Made by a program: the position numbers and the translations under genes. This document shows positions 1,717 through 16,022 of a stretch of 24,000 bases of DNA, in pieces. This DNA comes from Litoribrevibacter albus (GTDB lineage Bacteria > Pseudomonadota > Gammaproteobacteria > Pseudomonadales > Litoribrevibacteraceae). A model generated the notes under the pieces. That model ran no database searches. It worked only from the letters and a program-made list of their open reading frames with translations, and had not been told where the DNA came from. Numbering within the stretch: the first letter of the stretch is position 1; every line of letters begins with the position of its first letter. The stretch lies in NCBI RefSeq assembly GCF_030159995.1, contig NZ_BSNM01000014.1:421802-445801 (forward strand), read 5' to 3'.

Positions 1717-3027
1717 TCAAACCTTCATGTTGTTGAATTGAATGTCTTGAATCGCTCTATGTTTAAGTTTAAATCGCTGCCAAACCTTAACGTTAAGAAT
1801 GAGCAGAAAAGCACTGATAAGCAACAAAATAGCGCCGGCAATGCGAGAGACCATGGTTCCCAAAGGCGCAGATACCAAAACGGGTAACAGAACAAGATAT
1901 CCGTAGAACAACAGGCGGCCCTGCTTGGCTGAGATAAATTCAGACATTGAAGGCATCATGCTGATGGTATCCATAGATTTCATCGCCAGTTGCTGCAAAT
2001 TTAAAAATGCCAGGAACGGAACAATCTTCAATAACATTCCAAGAATAATCGATACCACAAAACCGAATACGAACATTAGCAAGGCTAAAATATGCATGTA
2101 AGGTTCAACACTGCTCTCCACCACAAAGGAAAGATCAAAGACCAGTATAGAGAGGAGCAACATAATCAAGCCTAAGCGCCAGAAATTAATGGTGGTATCC
2201 GCAACTTTTCTTCGACGTTGCGTTAATAAATACAACGCCGTACCGGCATACCCCACCAACGAAAGATGAAGGAAGAAAAATGCAGCCCAAATAAATGGTC
2301 GATGCTCATTAATCAGCCCTGCCGCCAACATAAGTAAGGCCAGAAAATGAAACATGGGAAGCCCACGCTTCAACCAATCAGGAAATTCTGGCGTAACATG
2401 AAACATCGGAATGACCTGAAAACTCACTCCGATAATGGTTAAAGAAACCCATCCCAACAAACCGAACACAAAGTGGATGTTTGTCAGTACTTTTCCAACC
2501 GATGATATTTCCAACCAATGATAACTGCCCAGTTGCCATAAGCCAGTGAGAACAGTCCCTACCAAACACAACCCGGCAAGCTTAATCGAAAATATCGACA
2601 CATTAGACTTACTATTAAAGAAGACGGTCACAATGCCTGACACCATCAACAGCAATGGAATTGCAATCAGACAGGTCGTAAGTAAAACAATGACTTTGGA
2701 TGGATACAGAAAGTTAATTGGGAAAAGAACTAGCCCGGTGGTGAGTAAGGCATGAAAAACAGTGGCCGAATGATCAACATAGGGAAACCCTCTACCACTT
2801 AACACCGGAAGCACCTGAGTAAGCGCCCCACACATAATCATCAAGATGAAGCCCAAGGTGAACACATGCGTAAGCGCGATAAGATCAGGCTGCCAACGAC
2901 TTAACCAGATATTGGGAAGGCATAATACAATAGCGCCCAAAGTGCTAAACACGGGGGCGGTAATAAAAAATCGCATCGGCGTCTGGAACGAAGGAATATT
3001 GTCAAAAGACAATCCGGAAAGATTCAT
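1717..3027 (-). CDS. Polytopic inner-membrane protein, NnrS-like (putative NO-stress-associated haem/copper membrane protein)
   Basis: 436 aa with about 12 hydrophobic segments and conserved His residues inside TM segments (LTHVFTLGF..., NIHFVFGLLGW..., MFHVTPEF). Family assignment rests on loose resemblance to NnrS and on its position downstream of hemerythrin and DUF2249 genes. The CDS is solid but the function is tentative. Confidence 0.6.
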   Translation of the reverse strand: MNLSGLSFDNIPSFQTPMRFFITAPVFSTLGAIVLCLPNIWLSRWQPDLIALTHVFTLGFILMIMCGALTQVLPVLSGRGFPYVDHSATVFHALLTTGLVLFPINFLYPSKVIVLLTTCLIAIPLLLMVSGIVTVFFNSKSNVSIFSIKLAGLCLVGTVLTGLWQLGSYHWLEISSVGKVLTNIHFVFGLLGWVSLTIIGVSFQVIPMFHVTPEFPDWLKRGLPMFHFLALLMLAAGLINEHRPFIWAAFFFLHLSLVGYAGTALYLLTQRRRKVADTTINFWRLGLIMLLLSILVFDLSFVVESSVEPYMHILALLMFVFGFVVSIILGMLLKIVPFLAFLNLQQLAMKSMDTISMMPSMSEFISAKQGRLLFYGYLVLLPVLVSAPLGTMVSRIAGAILLLISAFLLILNVKVWQRFKLKHRAIQDIQFNNMKV

Positions 3028-5451: not shown

Positions 5452-6678
5452 TCATTGATAACGATAACCGTCTCCTAGTGACTTGGTACGAAACGGTGAG
5501 AAGAACAAATGAACCTCTTCAACCGGTGAATATACATCCAACGATTTGGCATCTGCGATCTTCACGAGTTCCCTGTCTTTTTTAGTTCTCACAATCATGC
5601 TGTTTCTTTCACGATTGGACTTATCCTGAATCTGTTCTAACGAATCAAAAAGTTCAACATCAAGGTTTTCAGAGGTAATAACAAAATCCAATAACAAAGA
5701 CTTTCCGTTCTCAAACGTCGCCATAGCTGTAACCGGTTTGATTAACTTCTGTCCGTCCCAACGGCTCGGTTGCTCTGTCACCACGGAGGTTTCAGTAACC
5801 GAATTTCCCTTACCGACGATACCAAACAGCCAATCAAAGTTTTGCTGAATGACTTGATCAAAGGCTTTTTCGGTATTTACACGATGAAGCTGATCGTTAT
5901 AGCGTTTCTCAGAGGTAGGTGTCCAAACGAGCGGTTTTTCAACAACAGGGTATGTCTTGTTTTTTATAAAGCCATCTTCCTGATGAGCATACCGAATGGC
6001 CTGAGCCAATTGTTTCGGAAGTTCCTTCGCTATACGTTGGGACTCGGAGTCGAAGTATACCTGTGCGGCCGATAAAAACGCCTGATTTGAATCATAAACT
6101 TGTTGATCATGAGAAAGATTACCAGCGACTGCTCTTGGGTTTTCGTATTGGTTTTCACCAAAAGCAGGTCGGCCTGTAATCACCGCGTATTGATCCATCG
6201 TTTTATCCCAAGCTGGGTCATCCGGCATCAGTTTGGTAACGGTAAGATTCCTTCGAGTTTGAGCAGGTAATGAGTTAACGTCTTTGACAATGCAAAGATC
6301 GATTTTCATTTTAGTCTTGTCAGTGACTCCGTTCGTTAATAATCCCCGTTTCATTACATAATCAGGCTGCCCCTCCAATGGCGCAAACGTATAGGAATAA
6401 TTCCCATACTTACTGCCAAAGTAGTAAGTACCCGTTTCAATGGTTTTGGAATTGGTATACACGCCTGACGGTTTCAAACTACGAGGGTTTTTAAAATCGC
6501 CACAAACCACCCCATGAATGAAAATGGTTTGTTCTCGATCTAAAAAGTAATCAGGATAGCCCTCTACCGCTTGTGCAGTGGACACAACACAGGAGGCCGC
6601 CACACTACAAAAGGCTAAAACAGAAAGAGAAAAATACTTGGGTATTAAAGGCACAAAATATGTTTTGCGGATGGACAC
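5452..6678 (-). CDS. Secreted protein of unknown function
   Basis: 408 aa. GTG start at 6678 preceded by AAGGAGG (5-nt spacer). N-terminal signal peptide (...FSLSVLAFCSVAASCVVSTAQA/VEG). I recognise no family. Confidence 0.7.
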   Translation of the reverse strand: MSIRKTYFVPLIPKYFSLSVLAFCSVAASCVVSTAQAVEGYPDYFLDREQTIFIHGVVCGDFKNPRSLKPSGVYTNSKTIETGTYYFGSKYGNYSYTFAPLEGQPDYVMKRGLLTNGVTDKTKMKIDLCIVKDVNSLPAQTRRNLTVTKLMPDDPAWDKTMDQYAVITGRPAFGENQYENPRAVAGNLSHDQQVYDSNQAFLSAAQVYFDSESQRIAKELPKQLAQAIRYAHQEDGFIKNKTYPVVEKPLVWTPTSEKRYNDQLHRVNTEKAFDQVIQQNFDWLFGIVGKGNSVTETSVVTEQPSRWDGQKLIKPVTAMATFENGKSLLLDFVITSENLDVELFDSLEQIQDKSNRERNSMIVRTKKDRELVKIADAKSLDVYSPVEEVHLFFSPFRTKSLGDGYRYQ

Positions 6679-7226: not shown

Positions 7227-8897
7227 CTAGCTTTCCAACTCAGGGACGATTAAATCCAGTTTGCCATTTTCTACTTCAGGCACGGACTCATTCGGTTCTG
7301 GTAATGACTTGGAGACTTTGACAGAAAGGTCTTTAAACTTAGCGACTTTCGGATACAAGCCTTGCTGCCCCGCCATCGCAGTCACAGCGCCGTTATAGGC
7401 ATTCGTTGCGGTTTTTAATCCATTACCGACTTTATTCAAACGATCCGCCATCACACATAACTGGTTATAAACATCCGCCGCCTGATCAGCAATCTGACGC
7501 GCTTGCTCATTGCTTCGTTCCATCACCCACAAATTCGCGACGGTGCGAACAATTGGCAATAAGGTTGTTGGCGTCACTAATACCACGTTTCGCTCAAAGC
7601 CATAATTAAACAAGGTTCTGTCATGCTCTACGGCGGCTAGAAAGGCAGGTTCAATCGGCATAAACATCAAGACAAAGTCCGGCGAGTTCATTCCGATCAA
7701 ATTGGTGTAATCTTTTGACGACAAGCCATCAATGTGAGTTCTGATAGAAGCAACGTGGGCGTCTAAATACTGCTTCTTGCTGGCCTCATCTTCGGCTTCT
7801 ACCGAATTAACATAGGCCACCAACGACACCTTACTATCAATAATGACAGACTTGTTGCCAGGCAACTTCACAATCAAATCCGGGCGTTTATTCTTACCCT
7901 CTTCATCTTTGAAGTTGGCTTCACGCTCAAATTCCTGACCTTTACTTAAGCCAGAGCTTTCCAGAATCATTTCTGCTTGAAGTTCGCCCCACGAACCTTG
8001 TTGCTTATTATCCCCTTTCAAAGCTTTTGTCAGATTGCTGGCTTCATCGGTAATCTGCTGATTCAGTTTACGAAGGTGCTCTAGCTCTTGTGACAGGCTG
8101 GCTTTGGCTTTGGTGTCTTCTGTATGAATGGCCTCAACACGCGCTTTAAAGTCTGACATCTGTTCTTTGAACGGCGTCAGCATCGCATCAATGGATTGTT
8201 TGCTGGTTTCGGTGAAACTCTTACCTTTTTCTTCGAAAATTTTATTGGCCAGATTCTCAAAATCTTTTGCCAACTGAGCGCGATTATCTTCTAAAAGCTG
8301 CAGTTGCTCTTTGTGCTTATTGTCGCGTTCATCTAAAGAGGTTTTTAATTCTGCATAATCTGCTTTGAGTTGAGATTGAGCTAAATGCAGCTGCTGAAGA
8401 TCACTTTCCCTGTCTGCTAACTTGCCTTTGAGTTCATCTAACTGAGCCGTCAGCTGATTGGCTTGAGTAAGGTGTTTCGAGGCATCGGCTTTAACGTTTG
8501 AAAGCTCATTGGTTAAGTGATGTGACTTCTCTTGTTCTTTCTCAATCTGAACCTGTTTTGCTTCTTCCCGCTCTTTTGACTGAGTTAACTGTAATTGTTC
8601 AGATTCAAGCTGAGTGGACAGACGCCCGACTACTTGCTCAATTGAGTGCTTTGCTTCGTTAAGGTCTGAATACGCTACTACTTGCTGCTCAAGCTTTTGT
8701 TGACACTGTTCAAATTGAAGTTTGGTACTCGCCAGTAGTTGTTGAAGATTAATCGTCTCAGACTCTAAACGGGTTTTCTCCAAAACCTCTTGCTCTAATT
8801 GCTTTTTCATCTTTGAAACAGCCAAAAGATAGCTCGTTATTGAGGCGAGAATGATTCCGAGCACACCAAAAACAGCTACTAAAACAGTTTGATCCAT
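7227..8897 (-). CDS. rmuC: DNA recombination protein RmuC
   Basis: N-terminal TM helix, long Q/E/L-rich coiled coil, and a C-terminal RmuC nuclease-like domain (RPDLIVKLPGNKSVIIDSKVSLVAY...FVLMFMPIEPAF). ATG at 8897 (MDQTVLVAV) is preferred over the TTG at 8927. Confidence 0.9.
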   Translation of the reverse strand: MDQTVLVAVFGVLGIILASITSYLLAVSKMKKQLEQEVLEKTRLESETINLQQLLASTKLQFEQCQQKLEQQVVAYSDLNEAKHSIEQVVGRLSTQLESEQLQLTQSKEREEAKQVQIEKEQEKSHHLTNELSNVKADASKHLTQANQLTAQLDELKGKLADRESDLQQLHLAQSQLKADYAELKTSLDERDNKHKEQLQLLEDNRAQLAKDFENLANKIFEEKGKSFTETSKQSIDAMLTPFKEQMSDFKARVEAIHTEDTKAKASLSQELEHLRKLNQQITDEASNLTKALKGDNKQQGSWGELQAEMILESSGLSKGQEFEREANFKDEEGKNKRPDLIVKLPGNKSVIIDSKVSLVAYVNSVEAEDEASKKQYLDAHVASIRTHIDGLSSKDYTNLIGMNSPDFVLMFMPIEPAFLAAVEHDRTLFNYGFERNVVLVTPTTLLPIVRTVANLWVMERSNEQARQIADQAADVYNQLCVMADRLNKVGNGLKTATNAYNGAVTAMAGQQGLYPKVAKFKDLSVKVSKSLPEPNESVPEVENGKLDLIVPELES

Positions 8898-9130
8898 GCG
8901 TAAAGTTACCTTTGAAAGACTGAGCAATTAAGAGAGAAGCTAAAGTACCACGGCTTTAAGGGCTCATAAAGAGAGAGCTGGTTCACACATCAAAAAATAT
9001 GTAACTGGCGTAAGGGCAAATCAAACCCCACCTACCCGTTTGGATAGTGGGCATACATGCAGGCTTTGATGATGATGGTTTAACAACCTAGAAAACATTC
9101 GCTCTATAAAGATAAAAACAAGGAAAAGCG

Positions 9131-10186
9131 ATGAATATCATAAAAGCACTAGCACTTGGTGGCTGTGTGGCTTTGACCACTGGCTGCGTTGACAAAACCT
9201 CTATCACTCATATCGGCGATGCCGAAAATATTCTGTTCACTACCGATGGACGCCTGATTGTTTCCGGTGGCGACAACATCTATCAAGTTACAGGCTCAAA
9301 CGGCAACTACAGTAAACGTGCGCTGTATCTGAACAATGATGGCCATGAGATTGAATGTAACTTCACAGGCATCGCGCAAAAAGATAATTGGGTAATCAGC
9401 TCTTGCGTAGAAACCAAGTGGGTCATCTTTACAAACAATCATTTGGTAGCCGCTAATCTGGATGATCAAAACATCCAGTTCAAACGCATTACACCAAACA
9501 CAAACGATCCATATGACTCATTATTCTTACCAAATGGTATTGCTTTCGGGCCTAGCGGTGACTTATTGGTCGCGGACTACAACATGTTCTCTGCTTCAGG
9601 TATTGCTAAGGTCGAACTGGATTTCTCTGGAGATCTACCAAACGTCGTTTCCGTTGAAAAAGACTTTGTTGGCATTAACCACGGCATTTCATCACCAAAT
9701 GGCGTCAGAGTAGATGGTGATTATCTGTTTGTATCGGATGGAAACGCTGTAAAACGTTTCCAGTTTGACGAAGCCGGTAATGTTCCAACGCACATTGAAA
9801 AGAACGGTCTGACTGAAGCCAACGAAACGTTGGTATGGCAAGGCGGATTGGCAACGATAGTCGACGACATCATGCCGTACTGTGGCGGTGTTGCTTTGAC
9901 CAGTTTTCTGGGCGGTAAAATCATTTATGTTGAGCGCGAAGTGGATTCGCAAGGCAATGAATCATTCCACGAACTAACAGACACTGGTGCTCTGGCTTTC
10001 AGCTCGCCTAGCTCCTTGGCGGTTGGTCAACCACCATTGTTCAGTGGCTATCAGGTATTGGTTACAGAAAAAGGGTTACTTCAAGAAACCGGTTCTGACT
10101 TCGGGAATCGCTTGTCAGCAATGGAAATGCCATTTGATCTAAACAGTGACAATGCCTGCAACATTGTTTCTTCTCTAGATGACTAA
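9131..10186 (+). CDS. Lipoprotein, probable beta-propeller (SMP-30/gluconolactonase/NHL-like repeats)
   Basis: Lipobox LTTGC at residues 15-19. Recurring blade-like motifs (NGIAFGPSGDLLVADYN, PNGVRVDGDYLFVSDGN, DGRLIVSGGDN). RBS AAGGAA upstream. Confidence 0.7.
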   Translation: MNIIKALALGGCVALTTGCVDKTSITHIGDAENILFTTDGRLIVSGGDNIYQVTGSNGNYSKRALYLNNDGHEIECNFTGIAQKDNWVISSCVETKWVIFTNNHLVAANLDDQNIQFKRITPNTNDPYDSLFLPNGIAFGPSGDLLVADYNMFSASGIAKVELDFSGDLPNVVSVEKDFVGINHGISSPNGVRVDGDYLFVSDGNAVKRFQFDEAGNVPTHIEKNGLTEANETLVWQGGLATIVDDIMPYCGGVALTSFLGGKIIYVEREVDSQGNESFHELTDTGALAFSSPSSLAVGQPPLFSGYQVLVTEKGLLQETGSDFGNRLSAMEMPFDLNSDNACNIVSSLDD

Positions 10187-10407: not shown

Positions 10408-11643
10408 ATGAGTGCACAAACCTATGACTTGATCGTCTTTGGCGCAACCAGCTTTGTGGGTGAGATTCTAACTCACTATCTTAACGATACGTTTAATGGT
10501 CCAGACCAGGAATCACTGAACTGGGCGATTGCAGGACGATCGAAATCCAAATTGGAATCCTTAAAGTCATCGTTGGGAAACAAAGCCTCTGAGCTTGCCA
10601 TAGTCGTTGCCGATGCTGCTGATCAAGACCAACTTCATCAACTTTGCCAACAAACTCGCACCGTTGTTTCTACCGTCGGTCCCTATGCACTCTATGGTGA
10701 ACCTTTAGTCAAAGTCTGTTGTGAAACAGGCACGGATTACTGTGATCTGACAGGTGAAGTTCAGTGGATCAACCGAATGATCCGAAAATACGAAGCCAAA
10801 GCCAAAGAAACGGGCGCACGTATTGTGCATTGCTGTGGATTTGATTCTATTCCGTCCGATATGGGCGTGTACTTCCTTCAGCAACAAGCAGAAGCAACAC
10901 TGGGTTCAACGTGTAATAACATCAAGATGCGTGTCAAAGCCGCTAAAGGCGGGGCTTCCGGTGGTACGGTTGCCAGTATGGTGAACATCACCAAAGAAGC
11001 CACTGCCAATCCTCAACTTCGTAAAGAACTAGCAAACCCATATTCAATTTGCCCGGAAGGTCATCCGTTCAAAACTCGTCAACACAATGTAAACTCCGCC
11101 GAGTTCGATAACGACTTCAACAAATGGTCGGCACCTTTTGTGATGGCAGCGATTAATACACGAGTCGTACACCGATCAAATGGTTTGCTAGATGCCAAAT
11201 ATGGAGAGAACCTCAAATACGACGAAGCCATGCTGGTTGGCAATGGGCTGAAAGGTCGTCTCATGGCCAATGCCATTGTTGCCGGTCTTGCAGGTTTCTT
11301 GGTGGGTGCGGCACTTCCCCCTACCCGCTGGTTGCTTGAACGTTTTGTACTGCCTAAGCCAGGTGAAGGCCCTAGCCCGGAAGAACAAGTCAATGGCTAT
11401 TTCGATCTCCGATTTGTTGGCAAGAATGACAACGGGCAAGAGATCAAAGTAAAAGTAACCGGCCAAGGTGATCCTGGCTATGGATCTACATCCAAAATGC
11501 TAGGTCAAGCCGCCGCGTGCCTATCTCTGGACATCAGCAAAGAAGACAAAGCCGGTGGTTTCTGGACACCTTCGACTATTCTGGGTGATAAACTGCTTAC
11601 TCGCCTGACTGAAAAGTCTGATATGACATTCGAAGTAATTTAG
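10408..11643 (+). CDS. Saccharopine dehydrogenase-family NAD(P)-binding oxidoreductase (SCCPDH/trans-acting enoyl reductase-like)
   Basis: 411 aa. N-terminal Rossmann motif YDLIVFGATSFVGEIL, then VSTVGPYALYGEPLVKVC and HCCGFDSIPSDMG, typical of this family. RBS GGGAAG upstream. Confidence 0.85.
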   Translation: MSAQTYDLIVFGATSFVGEILTHYLNDTFNGPDQESLNWAIAGRSKSKLESLKSSLGNKASELAIVVADAADQDQLHQLCQQTRTVVSTVGPYALYGEPLVKVCCETGTDYCDLTGEVQWINRMIRKYEAKAKETGARIVHCCGFDSIPSDMGVYFLQQQAEATLGSTCNNIKMRVKAAKGGASGGTVASMVNITKEATANPQLRKELANPYSICPEGHPFKTRQHNVNSAEFDNDFNKWSAPFVMAAINTRVVHRSNGLLDAKYGENLKYDEAMLVGNGLKGRLMANAIVAGLAGFLVGAALPPTRWLLERFVLPKPGEGPSPEEQVNGYFDLRFVGKNDNGQEIKVKVTGQGDPGYGSTSKMLGQAAACLSLDISKEDKAGGFWTPSTILGDKLLTRLTEKSDMTFEVI

Positions 11644-11662
11644 TCTTTTAAATGGTTTCAAT

Positions 11663-11690
11663 ATGCGGTGGTTCAGGTCACCGCATTTTC
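11663..11690 (+). terminator. Probable rho-independent terminator
   Basis: 8-bp stem ATGCGGTG / CACCGCAT (11663-11670 / 11679-11686) followed by TTTTC. It lies between the convergent reductase and RT genes. Confidence 0.6.
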
Positions 11691-11732
11691 TAATCCTGTC
11701 TATGAGAGGAAAGGTCAGAGAGATTTAAAAAG

Positions 11733-13043
11733 TTAAGAATATATAGAAGGAAATGTATTGGTTTTATTGGCTTTTTCTATCTCTTTTTGAAGTCTTGACC
11801 ATAGAGGTTTCAGTTGTTTTCTAATTGCACTACTTCCCATAATCTTAGCAGCTCTATGTCCATACGTAATAAAGTTTCTGTTACTAAGATGGGAATAGCG
11901 TTTGTAAAGCTTTTTTCTATAAATATCTTGAATAGGAATTCCTTGTTCCAACCGTAACAGGTTTTCTTTATTTCTTTTCTTCATTGCTTGCCTTACACCA
12001 GATTTCATTTTTCCTGAGTATCTGGCTAGAGCAGCGGACCTTAAGAGCTTACTGCGCCCATCAAATGTAAAACCGAGGTATTGCAGAGGTTTATTACTGA
12101 ACTGTGTTGTACCTTTTGTCCAAAATTTTCTAATTTCAGTTTTATCCGGATTGATTGATAATCGTAGGTCTTGGATTCTTAGACTCGCCCGAGATTCTAT
12201 TTCTTTAGAGACCTCTTCAGGAACTATAAAAAGGATGTCATCACAGTAGCGATAGTAATGACCACTACATAGGTTTATGACTTCTTTTGCCCATTTATCA
12301 AATTCCAGCATGTATATATTCGATAGTAATGCACTTAGAGGGGAGCCTTGAGGTATACCCTTACTTTGAGAGTTTGTTTTGATTATTCCAGAGCCTCTAA
12401 TTAGATTTCTAAATGTAGCTGCATCACATAATTTAAAACGCCCTTTTTTAGAATTATGTTTAGATATACCTAACTTACAGTACACTTCATCTAATGCAAC
12501 CTCAGAAAATTCAGTAAGACTTTTAAATACATTAAAGTGGTCATCGGGTAAATAGCTGCAGTCAATAACATTTGCCCATGCTTGTTTCAAAATTAGATGA
12601 TCTAAGTTGTCAAAGAAGCCAGTTACATCGAGGGCAACGGCGACACAGTTCATTTGCTTCTTAATATCTTCAAATGCTTGATTGGCAAACTCAATATTCC
12701 CCTTCCCCAGTGATCTAAACGCTAGAATACTTTCATTTAGGCCATATTCAGTGATTTTAGTTTCATAGCTCTTAGAGAGTTGATATGTGTAATAAGCATA
12801 AATGTGAGAGTCTATATGAGCAGCGTATTTGATAGGCCTGATCTTTGGCTTTTTTCGTATTGAACCTGTTTCATCTTTTGAAATTTTTACAGTTTCTATC
12901 TCGTAGCTAATTAAAGGATAAAAAGCATGCATGGATACACGCTTTTGACTCATAACGATGCTTTGTGCCTTGGAGTATCTGACAGGAGAGTCAAAGTGAA
13001 GGTATCGTCTGGTTTTAAACCATTTCGGGATGTTTTTAGGCAT
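11733..13043 (-). CDS. Stand-alone reverse transcriptase of the defence-associated UG/Abi type, DRT2 (UG2)-like
   Basis: 436 aa with the ordered RT palm motifs: KIRPIKYAAHIDSHIYAYY (1/2), VAVALDVTGFFDNLDH (A), GIPQGSPLSALLSNIYM (B), YYRYCDDILFIV (C; YCDD encoded at 12237-12248), LSINPDKTEI (D), LQYLGFTF (E), plus a basic C-terminal tail of about 100 aa. There is no maturase/endonuclease, nitrilase, kinase or other fused domain and no adjacent effector ORF. Subfamily assignment is by architecture and context, not by a database search. Confidence 0.85.
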   Translation of the reverse strand: MPKNIPKWFKTRRYLHFDSPVRYSKAQSIVMSQKRVSMHAFYPLISYEIETVKISKDETGSIRKKPKIRPIKYAAHIDSHIYAYYTYQLSKSYETKITEYGLNESILAFRSLGKGNIEFANQAFEDIKKQMNCVAVALDVTGFFDNLDHLILKQAWANVIDCSYLPDDHFNVFKSLTEFSEVALDEVYCKLGISKHNSKKGRFKLCDAATFRNLIRGSGIIKTNSQSKGIPQGSPLSALLSNIYMLEFDKWAKEVINLCSGHYYRYCDDILFIVPEEVSKEIESRASLRIQDLRLSINPDKTEIRKFWTKGTTQFSNKPLQYLGFTFDGRSKLLRSAALARYSGKMKSGVRQAMKKRNKENLLRLEQGIPIQDIYRKKLYKRYSHLSNRNFITYGHRAAKIMGSSAIRKQLKPLWSRLQKEIEKANKTNTFPSIYS

Positions 13044-13172
13044 GAAAAATCCATTTCTGCAAAACCTGAAGAGTAAGGATTGTGGCCATCCAATTTCTCT
13101 TCAGGCTTAGTTAACGTATTACTACGTCATCAGATAACTAAGTTACCCAGCCACACTAAGTCAGATATGATT

Positions 13173-13178
13173 TATAAT
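13173..13178 (+). promoter_or_regulatory. Perfect -10 hexamer TATAAT (half of a circularly permuted promoter)
   Basis: TATAAT was read directly at 13173-13178. The sequence 17 bp upstream in the genome is GCCACA (3/6 to the -35 consensus). Downstream come AGGAG (13190-13194) and ATG (13203). Confidence 0.4.
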
Positions 13179-13202
13179 ATCGTTATCACAGGAGTTACTA
13201 GT

Positions 13203-13283
13203 ATGAGTCTGATAGACCTATACAGAACAATTATCTGTGTCTGTTCAAGTGTCAACCATTGGTTAATACTTGACAGCATGTGA
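13203..13283 (+). other. 26-codon mini-ORF (linear form of the putative endless ORF)
   Basis: AGGAG lies 8 nt upstream of ATG 13203. It reads MSLIDLYRTIICVCSSVNHWLILDSM then TGA at 13281-13283, in the same frame as the 13077-13280 stop-free window. Confidence 0.35.
13270..13275 (+). promoter_or_regulatory. Perfect -35 hexamer TTGACA, located downstream of its putative -10 partner
   Basis: TTGACA was read directly at 13270-13275. No usable -10 follows it in the genome (CTCCCC at the 17-bp position). With a 120-nt period the spacer to the next TATAAT is exactly 17 bp. Confidence 0.4.
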
Positions 13284-13318
13284 TACCCCTTGCTCCCCAC
13301 TTCGAAACAAGCAATTTC

Positions 13319-13347
13319 AATCTAGCTTAAGAATATCACTATTTCAA
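13319..13347 (-). promoter_or_regulatory. Candidate sigma70 promoter for the ncRNA/RT transcript
   Basis: On the minus strand: TTGAAA (rc of 13342-13347), a 17-nt spacer, then TAGATT (rc of 13319-13324). This predicts a start near 13312. Confidence 0.35.
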
Positions 13348-13535
13348 TACTCTTTTGACTTGATACTCTGCCATAAATAGCGGCGTCTCTTTAGGTGTTT
13401 AAGTTTATTGCAGTCTATCGATAGCTAAATAAGTTTTCGATAAGCCTTTCACTTACAGATATTTCCCCTAAAAGTTCGTGCTAAGCCGTTTGAATTCAGA
13501 ACTCTTACAATTGTGATCTTTCCAAAAAACCAATA

Positions 13536-13572
13536 ATAGCCATTACCTATCACTTCCATAACAACTATCAAT
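13536..13572. promoter_or_regulatory. OxyR-type binding site upstream of ahpC
   Basis: ATAG-ccattac-CTAT-cacttcc-ATAA-caactat-CAAT follows the ATAG-N7-CTAT-N7-ATAG-N7-CTAT layout (14/16 core positions). It lies about 100 nt upstream of the ahpC ATG. Confidence 0.45.
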
Positions 13573-13673
13573 TTTTAATATAACCCTGTTTGAACAACAA
13601 TAGATTTGTCGATTCAAGAGATGGGCAACCAGCCCAAATCACACACAGATATATCCGAACAGAGGAAATTATT

Positions 13674-14240
13674 ATGACTGCTAAAGTGAACTCAAAAATT
13701 CTTCCATTCAACGCAACTGCTTTCCGTCAAGGTGAATTCGTTGAAGTAAGCGAAGCTGATGTACTAGGTAAATGGGCTATTTTCTTCTTCTATCCTGCTG
13801 ACTTCACTTTCGTATGTCCTACGGAACTAGGTGACTTGGCAGAACATTACGAAGAGCTTCAAAAGCTAGGTGTTGAAGTTTACTCAGTATCAACTGACAC
13901 ACACTTCACTCACAAAGCATGGCACGACAGCTCAGACACCATCGGCAAGATCAACTACTTCATGCTAGGTGACCAAACCGGAACCATCACCAACAACTTC
14001 GGTGTAATGCGTGAAGGTCAAGGTCTTGCAGATCGCGCAACCTTCTTGGTTGATCCTGAAGGTGTAATCCAGGCGATGGAAGTAACTGCAGAAGGCATCG
14101 GTCGTGATGCTGAAGATCTGCTTCGCAAAGTGAAAGCTGCTCAGTACGTTGCAGCGCACCCAGGTGAAGTTTGCCCTGCTAAGTGGAAAGAAGGTGAAGA
14201 AACATTGGCTCCTTCTCTGGATCTAGTAGGCAAAATCTAA
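13674..14240 (+). CDS. ahpC: Alkyl hydroperoxide reductase subunit C (2-Cys peroxiredoxin)
   Basis: 188 aa from ATG 13674 with RBS GAGGAA upstream. [16 protein letters not shown] (peroxidatic Cys) and GEVCPAKW (resolving Cys). The listed start at 13590 adds a non-homologous 28 aa. Confidence 0.95.
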
Positions 14241-14441: not shown

Positions 14442-16022
14442 ATGTTAGATCAAGCAATGAAGCAACAGCTTAAAGCCTACTTAGAAAATTTGAAGAACGA
14501 CATCCAATTGGTACTAAGCCTTGATGACAGTGATACTGCTCGAAAATTGAAAGGTTTAGCAGACGACATTGCCAGTTTGAACGCCAAAGTCAGTGTCGTG
14601 GATGATCCATCTGCCAGTGATCGTAAACCGATCATGCAAGTGATCAATCGAGAAAAGAACACCGCCATTGGTTTTGCAGGCTTACCAATGGGTCATGAAT
14701 TCACCTCATTAGTGTTGGCTTTGTTGCACTCCGGCGGCCACCCAATGAAGTTAGATCAAGCGACCATTGATCAAATCGCGGGCCTTTGCCCAGAAGAAAG
14801 CGATCGTTTGAATGTTGAGATTTATATTTCGTTGTCTTGTCAGAACTGCCCGGACGTCGTTCAAGCATTCAACATGATGTCAGCCATCAACCCTCGCATC
14901 CGAGCAACCATGATTGATGGCGCGTCGTTCCAGGACGAAGTAAAAGAGCGAGAAATCATGGCCGTTCCTACCGTATTTGTTAACGGTGAAGTATTCAGTC
15001 AAGGTCGCAGCTCATTACAAGAGATTTTGAACAAACTAGATTCCGGTGCGGTAAAACGCCAAGCATCTGAAATCAACGAAAAAGCACCTTACGACATGCT
15101 AGTTGTAGGTGGAGGCCCTGCAGGTGCGGCAGCGTCTATCTACTCGGCACGTAAAGGCATTCGTACTGGCATCGTTGCAGAACGCTTCGGCGGCCAAGTG
15201 ATGGACACCATAGCCATTGAGAACTTTATCTCAGTCAAAGCCACCGAAGGGCCAAAACTTGCTGCAAGCCTAGAGGAGCACGTTAAAGAATACGAAGTTG
15301 ACTTAATGACTGAACAACGTGCCACTAAGTTGATCAGTGCAGATAAAACCGATGACGGTTTAGTCCATATCGAACTTGCCAGCGGAGCAACCGTTAAAAG
15401 TAAAAGCGTGGTATTAAGCACAGGTGCACGTTGGAGAGAAATGAATGTGCCAGGTGAACAAGAATATCGCAATAAAGGCGTCGCTTACTGTCCGCACTGT
15501 GATGGCCCCTTATTCAAAGGTAAGAAAACAGCCGTCATCGGCGGTGGTAACTCGGGTATAGAAGCCGCCATTGATTTGGCTGGTATCGTAGAACACGTCA
15601 CGGTACTTGAGTTTGCTGATACCCTTAGAGCAGACCAGGTGTTGATCGATAAAGCAAACAGTTTGCCAAATATCGAGATCATCAAAATGGCTCAAACTAC
15701 GGAAGTCATTGGCGATGGAACTCGTGTGACAGGCCTTAGATACAAAGACCGCAATACGGATGAGATCAAAGAGATTGAAGTCGCCGGCATTTTCGTTCAA
15801 ATCGGTTTGGTGCCTAACACTGAGTGGCTTAAAGATTCAGACGTGGCCTTGAGTAAGCACGGTGAAATCGAAATAGGTTCTCACGGTGAGACCAATGTCA
15901 AAGGTGTATTCGCAGCTGGTGATGTAACAACAGTACCATTCAAACAAATCATCATTGCGATGGGTGAAGGTGCAAAAGCAAGCCTGGGGGCATTTGATTA
16001 CTTGATCAGAAACGGTCAGTAA
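14442..16022 (+). CDS. ahpF: Alkyl hydroperoxide reductase subunit F
   Basis: 526 aa. N-terminal thioredoxin-like CQNCPD, FAD motif [14 protein letters not shown], redox-active CPHCDG and NADH motif [10 protein letters not shown]. Immediately downstream of ahpC. Confidence 0.95.

What the first reader, a model, noticed from the sequence alone, without database searches (positions are those of the whole stretch)
11733..13347. Stand-alone defence-type reverse transcriptase with its own non-coding leader in an AT-rich islet (DRT2/UG2-like)
A 436-aa protein carries all the RT palm motifs (YCDD at 12237-12248) and nothing else. It sits alone between a convergent reductase gene and the divergent OxyR-regulated ahpCF operon. 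No effector, second RT, integrase or intron-type domain is adjacent. Three 60-nt samples I counted inside the gene gave 28-42% G+C, against 45-50% in samples from the flanking genes, which suggests horizontal acquisition. About 270 nt of ORF-free, hairpin-rich sequence with its own promoter-like element lies directly upstream. A single small RT plus an upstream ncRNA is the published architecture of DRT2 (UG2) anti-phage systems.
Basis: partly seen in the sequence, partly recalled or inferred. Interest (0 to 1): 0.85.

Follow-up and report, generated by a model that had tools for sequence, protein, structure and literature searches.

The report
Known DRT2 reverse-transcriptase defence locus
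This is a standard DRT2 anti-phage system (a reverse transcriptase plus a structured RNA that hides a permuted toxin gene, neo), and this exact Litoribrevibacter albus locus is already listed in the 2024 paper that worked out the mechanism, so it is real but not new.

Summary
A 436-aa reverse transcriptase (11733-13043, minus strand, YCDD at 12237-12248) sits alone in a 36% G+C stretch between a saccharopine-dehydrogenase-type gene and ahpCF (46-48% G+C).

The DRT2 reading is supported:
- PADLOC Drt2 scores 621 bits; the next family scores 86.
- The NCBIfam Drt2 equivalog scores 563 bits against a cutoff of 390.
- The protein is 52% identical, end to end, to the solved K. pneumoniae DRT2.

The upstream "leader" is the 257-nt DRT2 ncRNA (13312-13056). 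It has the published 5' handle, template-closing stem, pseudoknot and 3' hairpins, all supported by covariation in 37 homologues. It contains a 120-nt template (13281-13162).

Concatenating the template's complement gives a TTGACA-17-TATAAT promoter across the junction. It also gives AGGAG plus ATG and a stop-free 40-codon hydrophobic repeat (neo). Neo is the "missing" effector.

57 of 76 homologous loci follow the same rules; controls give about zero.

The locus is row 623743644 of Tang et al. 2024 Table S1, with identical ncRNA, cDNA and Neo predictions. The only oddity is that the second jump motif reads ACU instead of ACA. Already known; low interest.

The parts
11733..13043 (-). Drt2 reverse transcriptase, 436 aa. 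Catalytic D139 and Y266-C-D268-D269. GenBank calls it from M38 (399 aa, 'hypothetical protein').
   Evidence: ORF. Drt2 HMMs. PDB DRT2 hits. Invariant W8, R12, Y14, H16, D18 in the first 37 residues and D139/D268/D269. The Kpn triad D140/D269/D270 is from PMC12596737.
13319..13347 (-). Promoter-like element for the ncRNA-RT transcript: TTGAAA (13347-13342), 17 nt, TAGATT (13324-13319). Predicted start at about 13312.
   Evidence: A TAnnnT -10-like hexamer sits at the same distance upstream of the 5' hairpin in the homologues (alignment A2, columns 3-8). Function is inferred.
13056..13312 (-). DRT2 non-coding RNA, 257 nt (GCUUGUUUC...GGUUUUGCAGA).
   Evidence: Same ends as the 'putative ncRNA' for this locus in Tang et al. 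Table S1. Covariation. Fold z = -4.0.
13289..13311 (-). 5' handle hairpin: CUUGUUU (13311-13305) pairs with GAGCAAG (13295-13289).
   Evidence: Helix 1: 93% of cells paired, 6 of 7 pairs with compensatory changes.
13282..13287 (-). 5' strand of the template-closing stem (GGUAUC). It pairs with GAUAUU at 13181-13176, inside the template's 3' end and overlapping the -10 complement.
   Evidence: Helix 2: 74% paired; pair 46/73 is A-U in 16 sequences and G-C in 11. Matches the 'template hairpin' of Wilkinson et al..
13162..13281 (-). Template region, 120 nt. It begins with ACA-1 (13281-13279) and ends with the primer-binding AUAUC (13168-13164) at positions -7 to -3.
   Evidence: Identical to the 'putative cDNA' in Tang Table S1. 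PBS position as in Kpn bases 142-146 of a 29-148 template.
13159..13161 (-). ACA-2 position (acceptor site for the template jump). Reads ACU here.
   Evidence: By the unbiased pick, the 61 upstream regions with a candidate read ACA in 41, GCA in 6, ACG in 1 and ACU only in the window.
13149..13155 (-). Pseudoknot 5' strand UGUGGCU. It pairs with the hairpin loop GGCCACA at 13087-13081.
   Evidence: Helix 3: pair 100/209 is C-G in 25 and U-A in 12 with none broken; pair 102/207 is G-C 33, A-U 3, G-U 1.
13133..13147 (-). Variable hairpin: GGUAACU (13147-13141) pairs with AGUUAUC (13139-13133).
   Evidence: Seen in the fold and sequence. Length varies among homologues, so it was not counted for covariation.
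13114..13127 (-). Short hairpin ('buttress'-like): ACGUA (13127-13123) pairs with UACGU (13118-13114).
   Evidence: Helix 4: 68% paired, 4 of 5 pairs with compensatory changes. The alignment is imperfect here.
13062..13108 (-). Long 3' hairpin ('tower'-like). Outer stem AAGCCUGAAGAG / CUCUUCAGGUUU, inner stem GGAU / AUCC (13091-13088 / 13080-13077), followed by a U-run.
   Evidence: Helices 5 and 6: 92% and 88% paired, 9 of 12 outer pairs compensatory. Part of the Rfam RT-12 match 13056-13163.
13162..13281 (+). neo repeat unit as it would appear in concatemeric cDNA, 40 codons: DMIYNIVITGVTSMSLIDLYRTIICVCSSVNHWLILDSMS. Frame starts at 13164; the junction codon is T(13281)+CA.
   Evidence: One frame of three is stop-free in the concatemer. 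Same Neo as in Tang Table S1, flagged TRUE.
13270..13275 (+). neo -35 element TTGACA, 6 nt before the unit's 3' end.
   Evidence: Invariant in the 120-nt homologues (entropy about 0).
13173..13178 (+). neo -10 element TATAAT, 11 nt after the unit's 5' end. The spacer to the -35 is 17 nt only across a repeat junction. In the linear genome the -35 position reads GCCACA.
13190..13205 (+). neo ribosome-binding site AGGAG (13190-13194) and start codon ATG (13203-13205).
   Evidence: In the stop-free frame. [quoted passage not shown]
13203..13283 (+). Linear proto-neo: 26 codons (MSLIDLYRTIICVCSSVNHWLILDSM) ending at TGA 13281-13283. The T of that stop is the last template base, so the jump removes the stop.
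   Evidence: Kpn also shows 26 codons in the linear view (PMC11100668).

Best explanation
The locus is a complete DRT2 (UG2) anti-phage system of the K. pneumoniae type. It consists of one promoter, a 257-nt structured ncRNA and the Drt2 reverse transcriptase.

By analogy with KpnDRT2, the mechanism would run as follows:
1. The RT binds the ncRNA through the 5' handle and the pseudoknotted 3' scaffold.
2. It primes at AUAUC (13168-13164) and copies the 120-nt template up to ACA-1.
3. The nascent ...TGT-3' end re-anneals at the ACA-2 position just 3' of the template, and copying starts again. This gives head-to-tail 120-nt cDNA repeats.
4. [quoted passage not shown]
5. Only in the double-stranded concatemer do the -35 (end of one repeat) and the -10 (start of the next) lie 17 bp apart. 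Only then is the antisense strand transcribed.
6. From AGGAG and ATG the ribosome reads a never-ending 40-codon hydrophobic repeat (Neo), which arrests the cell (abortive infection).

Shown here by sequence and comparison: family membership of the RT, the conserved covarying RNA architecture, the template boundaries, the junction promoter, the RBS and ATG, and the stop-free frame.

Inferred from the published system and not tested here: RT-ncRNA binding, concatemer synthesis, the phage trigger and Neo toxicity.
For: Protein:
- PADLOC Drt2 621 bits, next family 86.
- NCBIfam Drt2 equivalog 562.7 bits against cutoff 390.
- Solved DRT2 chains 9lje_A and 9c0i_A score 465-466 bits over residues 7-426, 52% identity.
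- Catalytic D139, D268 and D269 are invariant.

RNA:
- Rfam RT-12 matches 13056-13163 on the RT strand over the full model, 38.5 bits, E 2.7e-4.
- RT-12 reaches its gathering score directly upstream of the RT in 16 of 20 homologous loci.
- On 37 distinct homologous ncRNAs the six-helix structure including the pseudoknot has 85% of cells paired, against 40-48% with slid partners. The covariation score is 0.504 against 0.09-0.16, and 0 of 500 shuffles reach it.

neo:
- The unit 13162-13281 is 120 nt, has one stop-free frame, and gives TTGACA-17-TATAAT only across the junction. AGGAG and ATG are in frame.
- 58 of the 77 upstream regions scanned (the window plus 57 of 76 homologues) have a stop-free unit. 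The reverse-complement control gives 0 of 77 and shuffles give 0.3 per 77.
- Unit lengths are 105-132 nt and all divisible by 3.
- The trinucleotide after the unit, which was not used in the selection, is ACA in 41 of 61 regions.
- Differences between close units fall 65/40/86 on codon positions 1/2/3. Neo is 58% hydrophobic against 46% in the other frames.

Stand-alone: no neighbour family is found in more than 4 of 67 loci.

Independent confirmation: Tang et al. 2024 Table S1 lists this locus with the same ncRNA, cDNA and Neo, flagged TRUE.
Against: - The ACA-2 acceptor reads ACU (13161-13159), the only such case among 61 regions. Tang et al. report loss of defence when ACA-1 or ACA-2 is mutated, so jumping could be weakened here. 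The two 3'-terminal cDNA bases still pair.
- The partner base in the alternative basal stem is G13287 where the nearest relatives have U. That would give G.U in place of U-A, but this is one case and that stem is not conserved across the whole set.
- The RT-12 score is below Rfam's gathering score (38.5 against 44.2).
- The stop-free frame extends beyond the unit (13077-13280), so openness alone does not fix the boundaries. They rest on the promoter spacing, ACA-1 and the homologue register.
- No experiment exists for this locus. The nearest other RT is only 62% identical.
Confidence: 0.9

Rival explanations
1. A decaying or weakened DRT2. The RT and ncRNA are of DRT2 type, but the A-to-U change in ACA-2 impairs the programmed template jump, so the locus makes mostly single-unit cDNA and gives little or no defence.
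For: ACU at 13161-13159 is unique among 61 regions. Mutations of ACA-1 or ACA-2 abolish defence in KpnDRT2 (PMC11100668 main text and the legend of fig. S3F). The Rfam RT-12 score is below gathering.
Against: - Everything else is intact: full-length RT with all invariant residues, consensus junction promoter, RBS, ATG and open frame, and all helices able to form.
- Natural variants at this motif exist in otherwise canonical loci: GCA in 6 and ACG in 1.
- The two bases that pair with the cDNA 3' end are kept.
- A possible compensating G.U in the basal stem is present.
Confidence: 0.2
2. A mobile retroelement RT (group II intron maturase or retron RT), with the upstream RNA being intron or msr-msd sequence.
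For: Weak partial hits of the palm region to group II intron (85.5 bits) and retron (43.5 bits) models, as expected for any prokaryotic RT.
Against: Both scores are far below their curated cutoffs of 300 and 235. No group II intron or retron RNA family was found in 11000-14000 even at E <= 1. The protein has no maturase or endonuclease domain. The Drt2 models match end to end.
Confidence: 0.01
3. The upstream 270 nt is only a 5' UTR or regulatory leader of the RT gene, and the antisense open frame is chance.
For: The open frame on the + strand runs 29 codons past the unit. The median in homologues is 14 and the maximum 52, so some openness is chance. AT-rich DNA yields promoter-like hexamers easily: 4 were found against 7.3 expected in 11500-13750.
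Against: Perfect TTGACA and TATAAT hexamers, a 17-nt junction spacer, a unit length divisible by 3 and a stop-free frame co-occur in 57 of 76 homologues, against about 0 in controls. The substitution pattern is coding-like. Neo repeats align across loci. Covariation includes a pseudoknot.
Confidence: 0.02

Closest known systems
Klebsiella pneumoniae DRT2 (KpnDRT2): Tang et al. 2024 (PMC11100668); Wilkinson et al. 2024 (PMC12039810); structures 9c0i/9c0j/9lje
   Same: - The RT aligns end to end (52% identity) with the same catalytic residues.
- The ncRNA is upstream on the same strand, with a 5' handle, template-closing stem, pseudoknot and 3' hairpins.
- The template is 120 nt and starts with ACA.
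- AUAUC lies at -7 to -3 from the template end.
- The -35 and -10 are split across the repeat junction with a 17-bp spacer.
- RBS and ATG follow the -10.
- 26 codons are visible in the linear genome.
- The Neo repeat is hydrophobic and 40 aa long.
- There is no protein effector gene.
   Different: ACA-2 reads ACU. The ncRNA is 257 nt against about 281 nt. The host is a marine Oceanospirillales bacterium, and the locus sits next to ahpCF rather than in a defence island. It has not been tested experimentally.
Rfam RF03016 (RT-12 RNA motif)
   Same: It covers the 3' scaffold of the ncRNA (13056-13163), full model length, same strand, directly upstream of the RT. This is also the case in 16 of 20 homologous loci.
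   Different: The window's copy scores 38.5 bits, under the gathering score of 44.2. The Rfam model covers only the scaffold, not the template or the 5' handle.
DRT10 / UG17 and telomerase (tandem-repeat synthesis from an internal RNA template)
   Same: An RT uses a short alignment sequence next to a template bounded by a stem and a pseudoknot to make tandem repeats (concept discussed in PMC12039810 and PMC12632851).
   Different: The protein is not UG17 (86 bits against 621 for Drt2). There is no SLATT effector. The repeat unit is 120 nt and codes for a protein, rather than a short non-coding repeat.
Retrons
   Same: An RT plus an adjacent ncRNA template, used for abortive-infection defence.
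   Different: There is no msr-msd structure and no separate effector gene. Retron HMMs score far below cutoff. The product is predicted to be a concatemeric coding DNA, not msDNA.

Membership tests
DRT2 (UG2) defence system | RT protein matches Drt2-specific models above curated thresholds and better than any other RT class | tested here: met
   PADLOC Drt2 621 bits against 86 for the next class. NCBIfam NF041746 equivalog 562.7 bits against cutoff 390. PDB DRT2 chains 465-466 bits over the full length.
DRT2 (UG2) defence system | Intact catalytic site (YxDD plus the upstream Asp) | tested here: met
   Y266-C-D268-D269 and D139 are invariant columns in 39 Drt2 proteins. The Kpn triad is D140/D269/D270 (PMC12596737).
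DRT2 (UG2) defence system | Structured ncRNA upstream on the RT strand: 5' handle, template-closing stem, pseudoknot, 3' hairpins | tested here: met
   All six helices can form in the window. 85% paired and covariation 0.504 against at most 0.16 in slid controls on 37 sequences. Rfam RT-12 hit.
DRT2 (UG2) defence system | Template begins with ACA-1 | tested here: met
   ACA at 13281-13279, in register with the homologues.
DRT2 (UG2) defence system | A matching ACA-2 immediately 3' of the template | tested here: inconclusive
   Reads ACU (13161-13159), so 2 of 3 bases match, including the two that pair with the cDNA 3' end. ACA in 41, GCA in 6 and ACG in 1 of the 61 regions. The authors' pipeline still accepted this locus. 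The functional effect is unknown.
DRT2 (UG2) defence system | Repeat unit length divisible by 3, with one stop-free frame across the junction, antisense to the ncRNA | tested here: met
   120 nt; frame 2 is open and frames 0 and 1 have 5-6 stops per unit.
DRT2 (UG2) defence system | Sigma-70 promoter formed only across the repeat junction | tested here: met
   TTGACA 13270-13275 and TATAAT 13173-13178. The spacer is 17 nt across the junction. In the linear genome the two elements are in the wrong order (91 bp apart) and the -35 position reads GCCACA.
DRT2 (UG2) defence system | RBS and start codon downstream of the -10, in the open frame | tested here: met
   AGGAG 13190-13194, then 8 nt, then ATG 13203-13205.
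DRT2 (UG2) defence system | No dedicated protein effector gene next to the RT | tested here: met
   No neighbour cluster in more than 4 of 67 homologous loci. The window neighbours are housekeeping genes.
DRT2 (UG2) defence system | Concatemeric cDNA synthesis, phage-triggered second strand, Neo toxicity, phage defence | not testable with these tools
   Needs cloning, sequencing of the cDNA and phage assays.
Group II intron RT / maturase | Match to the group II intron RT model above cutoff, and an intron RNA | tested here: not met
   TIGR04416 85.5 bits against cutoff 300. No intron RNA family in 11000-14000 at E <= 1.
Retron | Retron-type RT with msr-msd RNA and an effector | tested here: not met
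   The best retron model scores 43.5 bits against cutoff 235. No retron RNA hit. No effector gene.
DRT3 (UG3+UG8) | Two RT genes (Drt3a and Drt3b) with an ncRNA | tested here: not met
   Drt3a 67.9 bits against cutoff 200. Only one RT-sized ORF with RT motifs in the window.

The most novel reading that the evidence does not exclude
The ACU at the ACA-2 position is tolerated, not a defect. This lineage would then perform the programmed template jump with only two matching bases. The basal stem would be kept by a G.U pair (G13287.U13159) where relatives have U-A. That would show that re-annealing of the cDNA 3' end needs less homology than the 3-nt ACA rule derived from KpnDRT2, or that stem geometry rather than sequence identity sets the jump site.
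Probability: 0.5. Interest if true: 0.3.

Novelty: already known. Interest (0 to 1): 0.15.

Why it matters
It matters little beyond annotation. The genome record calls the RT a 399-aa 'hypothetical protein' and annotates neither the ncRNA nor neo. The correct reading is a 436-aa Drt2, a 257-nt ncRNA and a permuted neo gene.

The case shows that a 'lonely RT with no effector' can be resolved from sequence alone by testing for a junction promoter and a circularly open frame.

The one point of specialist interest is the natural ACU variant at the jump acceptor. It offers a ready-made test of how much homology the template jump needs.

Tried and rejected
- Genome-collection scan with the single protein gave only distant relatives at 29-36% identity. 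The metagenome scan with a protein alignment gave the 80 loci that were used.
- Exact-protein look-ups for the window's AhpC and for the 399-aa GenBank RT found nothing on record.
- Empty-site test. Relatives with a reductase 82, 70 and 69% identical keep the upstream genes. Downstream they have Peptidase_M14, DUF6164 or a TonB receptor, with no ahpC and no RT. This shows a synteny break-point, not a clean insertion site.
- No direct or inverted repeats bound the AT-rich stretch; only short chance matches were found.
- The Tang-type basal stem (GGUGU with ACAUU) was tested as an alternative to the Wilkinson-type template hairpin. It holds in the nearest subclade only, so the 'compensated ACU' idea remains a single observation.
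- A weak Rfam L20_leader match at 11534-11698 (24.4 bits against 58.7, E 0.085) overlaps the reductase terminator hairpin and was dismissed as chance.
- The PADLOC 'RTasRmuC' hit for RmuC (7227-8927) was considered as a possible partner. It was rejected because the same RmuC lies in the same gene order in relative L089, which has no RT.
- The 2025 structural paper PMC12596737 gave no data on sequence tolerance at ACA-2.
Full report
OBSERVATION

The codons TAC TGT GAT GAC (YCDD) lie at 12237-12248. Pfam finds only the RVT_1 domain.

The RT gene is 35.6% G+C and the whole 11650-13660 stretch is 36.0%. The convergent upstream gene is 47.6%, ahpC 45.6% and ahpF 46.2%.

The neighbours are as described. 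A Sacchrp_dh_NADP protein lies at 10408-11643, AhpC at 13671-14240 and AhpF at 14442-16022. No integrase, second RT or effector-like gene is found anywhere in the 24-kb window.

On the RT strand a TTGAAA-17-TAGATT element lies at 13347-13319. The 277 nt between it and the RT start fold better than all 200 shuffles, z = -4.0.

The leader is not ORF-free: its opposite strand is open for 68 codons, 13077-13280.

WHAT THE PROTEIN IS

The protein is a Drt2 reverse transcriptase.
- PADLOC's Drt2 model scores 621 bits (E 2e-187). The best other class, RT_UG17, scores 86 bits.
- The NCBIfam equivalog 'antiviral reverse transcriptase Drt2' scores 562.7 bits against a cutoff of 390.
- The group II intron model scores 85.5 against 300, retron 43.5 against 235 and Drt3a 67.9 against 200. 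All three fail.
- The protein aligns over residues 7-426 with the solved K. pneumoniae DRT2 chains (9lje_A 466 bits, 9c0i_A 465 bits) at 52% identity.
- In an alignment of 39 Drt2 proteins, D139, D268 and D269 are invariant. They correspond to the Kpn catalytic triad D140/D269/D270 (PMC12596737).

The window comes from Litoribrevibacter albus. A 100% identical entry is annotated as a 399-aa 'hypothetical protein', and the next closest RT is 62% identical. The first 37 residues that GenBank omits contain invariant positions W8, R12, Y14, H16 and D18, so the 436-aa start is the right one.

WHAT THE LEADER IS

The published mechanism gives testable sequence rules (Tang et al. 2024, PMC11100668; Wilkinson et al. 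2024, PMC12039810):
- a ~280-nt ncRNA upstream on the RT strand;
- a template that starts with ACA-1 and is followed by ACA-2;
- a unit length divisible by three;
- a stop-free frame on the antisense strand;
- a -35 near the unit's 3' end and a -10 near its 5' end, so that a promoter exists only across a repeat junction;
- an RBS and ATG after the -10;
- a primer-binding AUAUC near the template's 3' end;
- a pseudoknotted 3' scaffold.

The window meets nearly all of them:
- The unit 13162-13281 is exactly 120 nt.
- On the + strand TATAAT is at 13173-13178 and TTGACA at 13270-13275. Their spacer is 17 nt only when two units are joined. In the linear genome the -35 position reads GCCACA.
- AGGAG (13190-13194) is followed 8 nt later by ATG (13203-13205).
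- One frame of the concatemer is stop-free and encodes DMIYNIVITGVTSMSLIDLYRTIICVCSSVNHWLILDSMS.
- In the linear genome the frame gives 26 codons and ends at TGA 13281-13283. The T of that stop is the last template base, so the jump replaces TGA by TCA. KpnDRT2 also shows 26 codons in the linear view.
- AUAUC lies at -7 to -3 from the template end, the same place as bases 142-146 of the Kpn template.

COMPARATIVE TEST

A metagenome scan with a Drt2 alignment returned 80 loci with RTs 47-59% identical to the window's. I scanned the 360 nt upstream of each RT for ACA, the reverse-complemented -35 and -10 (at most one mismatch each) and a 17-nt junction spacer.

Of the 77 upstream regions scanned (the window plus 76 loci with enough upstream sequence), 61 had a candidate, 59 had a unit length divisible by three and 58 had a stop-free frame. 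The reverse complements of the same regions gave 6, 1 and 0. Shuffles gave 4.25, 1.3 and 0.3 per 77.

When candidates were picked on hexamer mismatches alone, 51 of 61 were both divisible by three and stop-free. In the final set of 58 units the lengths run from 105 to 132 nt, with 120 nt the most common. The trinucleotide after the unit, which was not used in the selection, is ACA in 41 regions and GCA in 6.

The Neo repeats align with one another, for example window DMIYNIVITGVTSMSL...LDSMS with L012 DMIYNIVVSGVFDVSL...LDSLS. Among close 120-nt units, differences fall 65, 40 and 86 on codon positions 1, 2 and 3. Neo is 58% hydrophobic against 46% in the other frames.

RNA STRUCTURE

I aligned 37 distinct ncRNAs with the template interior removed (A2). 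RNAalifold found the 5' hairpin and the long 3' hairpin, and 16 of 19 pairs showed compensatory changes.

I then wrote a six-helix structure that adds the template-closing stem, a short hairpin and a pseudoknot. It gave 85% of cells paired against 40-48% when partners were slid. The covariation score was 0.504 against 0.09-0.16, and no shuffle of 500 reached the observed values for cells paired, cells with a change on both sides, further pair types or the covariation score.

The pseudoknot is particularly clear. Pair 100/209 is C-G in 25 sequences and U-A in 12, and it is never broken. The structure was drawn from the window's own sequence, which inflates the paired percentage but not the compensatory changes.

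Rfam's RT-12 motif matches 13056-13163 over the whole model at 38.5 bits, under the gathering score of 44.2. The same family reaches its gathering score directly upstream of the RT in 16 of 20 homologous loci. RT-12 is therefore the 3' scaffold of the DRT2 ncRNA, and the window has a divergent copy.

STAND-ALONE STATUS AND CONTEXT

Flanking ORFs from 67 homologous loci were clustered by all-against-all BLAST. No family occurs in more than 4 loci. The RT plus ncRNA is thus a self-contained module, and no effector gene has been lost here. The effector is Neo.

No repeats bound the AT-rich stretch. Relatives whose reductase is 82, 70 or 69% identical keep the upstream genes but have different genes downstream, and none has an RT. 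The low G+C and the position at a synteny break-point fit horizontal acquisition, but I found no clean empty site and no mobile-element marks.

PRIOR KNOWLEDGE OF THIS LOCUS

Table S1 of Tang et al. 2024 lists this very locus: row 623743644, BSNM01000014.1 433534-434733, GLQ31952.1, L. albus NBRC 110071. The row gives:
- a putative ncRNA GCTTGTTTC...GGTTTTGCAGA, which equals window 13312-13056;
- a putative cDNA identical to my 120-nt unit;
- a Neo CDS starting at the same ATG;
- 'Neo identified: TRUE'.

My analysis was done before I saw that row and agrees with it in every coordinate.

THE ONE ODDITY

The acceptor motif ACA-2 reads ACU (13161-13159), the only such case among the 61 regions. 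Tang et al. report that mutations of ACA-1 or ACA-2 abolish defence in KpnDRT2; the exact mutated bases are shown only in a figure I could not read.

The two bases that would pair with the cDNA's 3'-terminal G and T are kept. In the alternative basal stem of Tang et al. (GGUGU with ACAUU), the window has G13287 where its nearest relatives have U. That would turn a U-A pair into G.U. This is a single case and the stem is not conserved across the whole set, so I treat it as a lead only.

I put about 0.2 on the locus being a weakened system.

VERDICT

The locus is an ordinary, apparently intact member of the KpnDRT2-like clade and is already catalogued in the literature.

Novelty: already known. 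Interest is low (0.15). The residual value is a corrected annotation and a natural ACU variant that could be used to probe the template jump.

Noticed in passing
window 12933-13043 (-): The GenBank protein for this gene (GLQ31952.1, 399 aa, 'hypothetical protein') starts at M38. The 37 residues it omits contain positions that are invariant in 39 Drt2 proteins (W8, R12, Y14, H16, D18) and that align with the solved Kpn DRT2 from residue 7. The annotated start is therefore too short.
   Followed up: yes
window 13159-13161 (-) and 13287 (-): The ACA-2 jump acceptor reads ACU, unique among 61 regions. The base that would pair with its third position in the Tang-type basal stem is G here and U in the nearest relatives (U-A replaced by G.U).
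   Followed up: partly
window 7227-8927 (-): RmuC-family protein (Pfam RmuC, 338 bits) hits PADLOC's 'RT-associated RmuC' DRT model at 375 bits. It lies 2.8 kb from the RT with two genes between them. The same RmuC is in the same gene order in relative L089, which lacks an RT, so it looks like the housekeeping gene rather than a partner.
   Followed up: partly
window 11643-13671 compared with L086, L089, L091: Gene order upstream of the reductase is conserved in relatives (in L089: DUF938, an unnamed protein, RmuC, UPF0231, the 351-aa protein, reductase). It ends exactly after the reductase, and each lineage has different genes downstream. The DRT2 islet sits at this break-point.
   Followed up: partly
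window 13062-13108 (-): The long 3' hairpin of the ncRNA is followed by a conserved U-run (GGUUUUGC) about 15-20 nt before the RT start codon. It resembles an intrinsic terminator and may set the ncRNA 3' end or attenuate read-through into the RT gene.
   Followed up: no
window 11663-11686 (+): A GC-rich hairpin (ATGCGGTGGTTCAGGTCACCGCAT) followed by TTTTC lies between the convergent reductase and RT genes. It is probably a shared, bidirectional terminator. The weak Rfam L20_leader match here (E 0.085) is most likely due to this hairpin.
   Followed up: no
window 1717-3027 (-), 5452-6678 (-), 9131-10186 (+): Three sizeable ORFs (436, 408 and 351 aa) have no Pfam or PADLOC match. L089 and L090 carry a 351-aa gene, and L086 a 350-aa gene, directly upstream of the reductase with no firm Pfam hit, and L089 has an unnamed 390-aa gene beyond RmuC. 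These appear to correspond to the window's 351- and 408-aa ORFs, though I did not compare the sequences.
   Followed up: no
L019, L034, L054, L055, L057, L059, L060, L062, L063, L068, L073, L074, L077, L081, L082, L084: About a fifth of the homologous loci (RTs 47-54% identical) gave no canonical ACA / -35 / -10 arrangement in my scan. Tang et al. also note clades in which Neo is hard to predict, so these may use a variant template layout.
   Followed up: no
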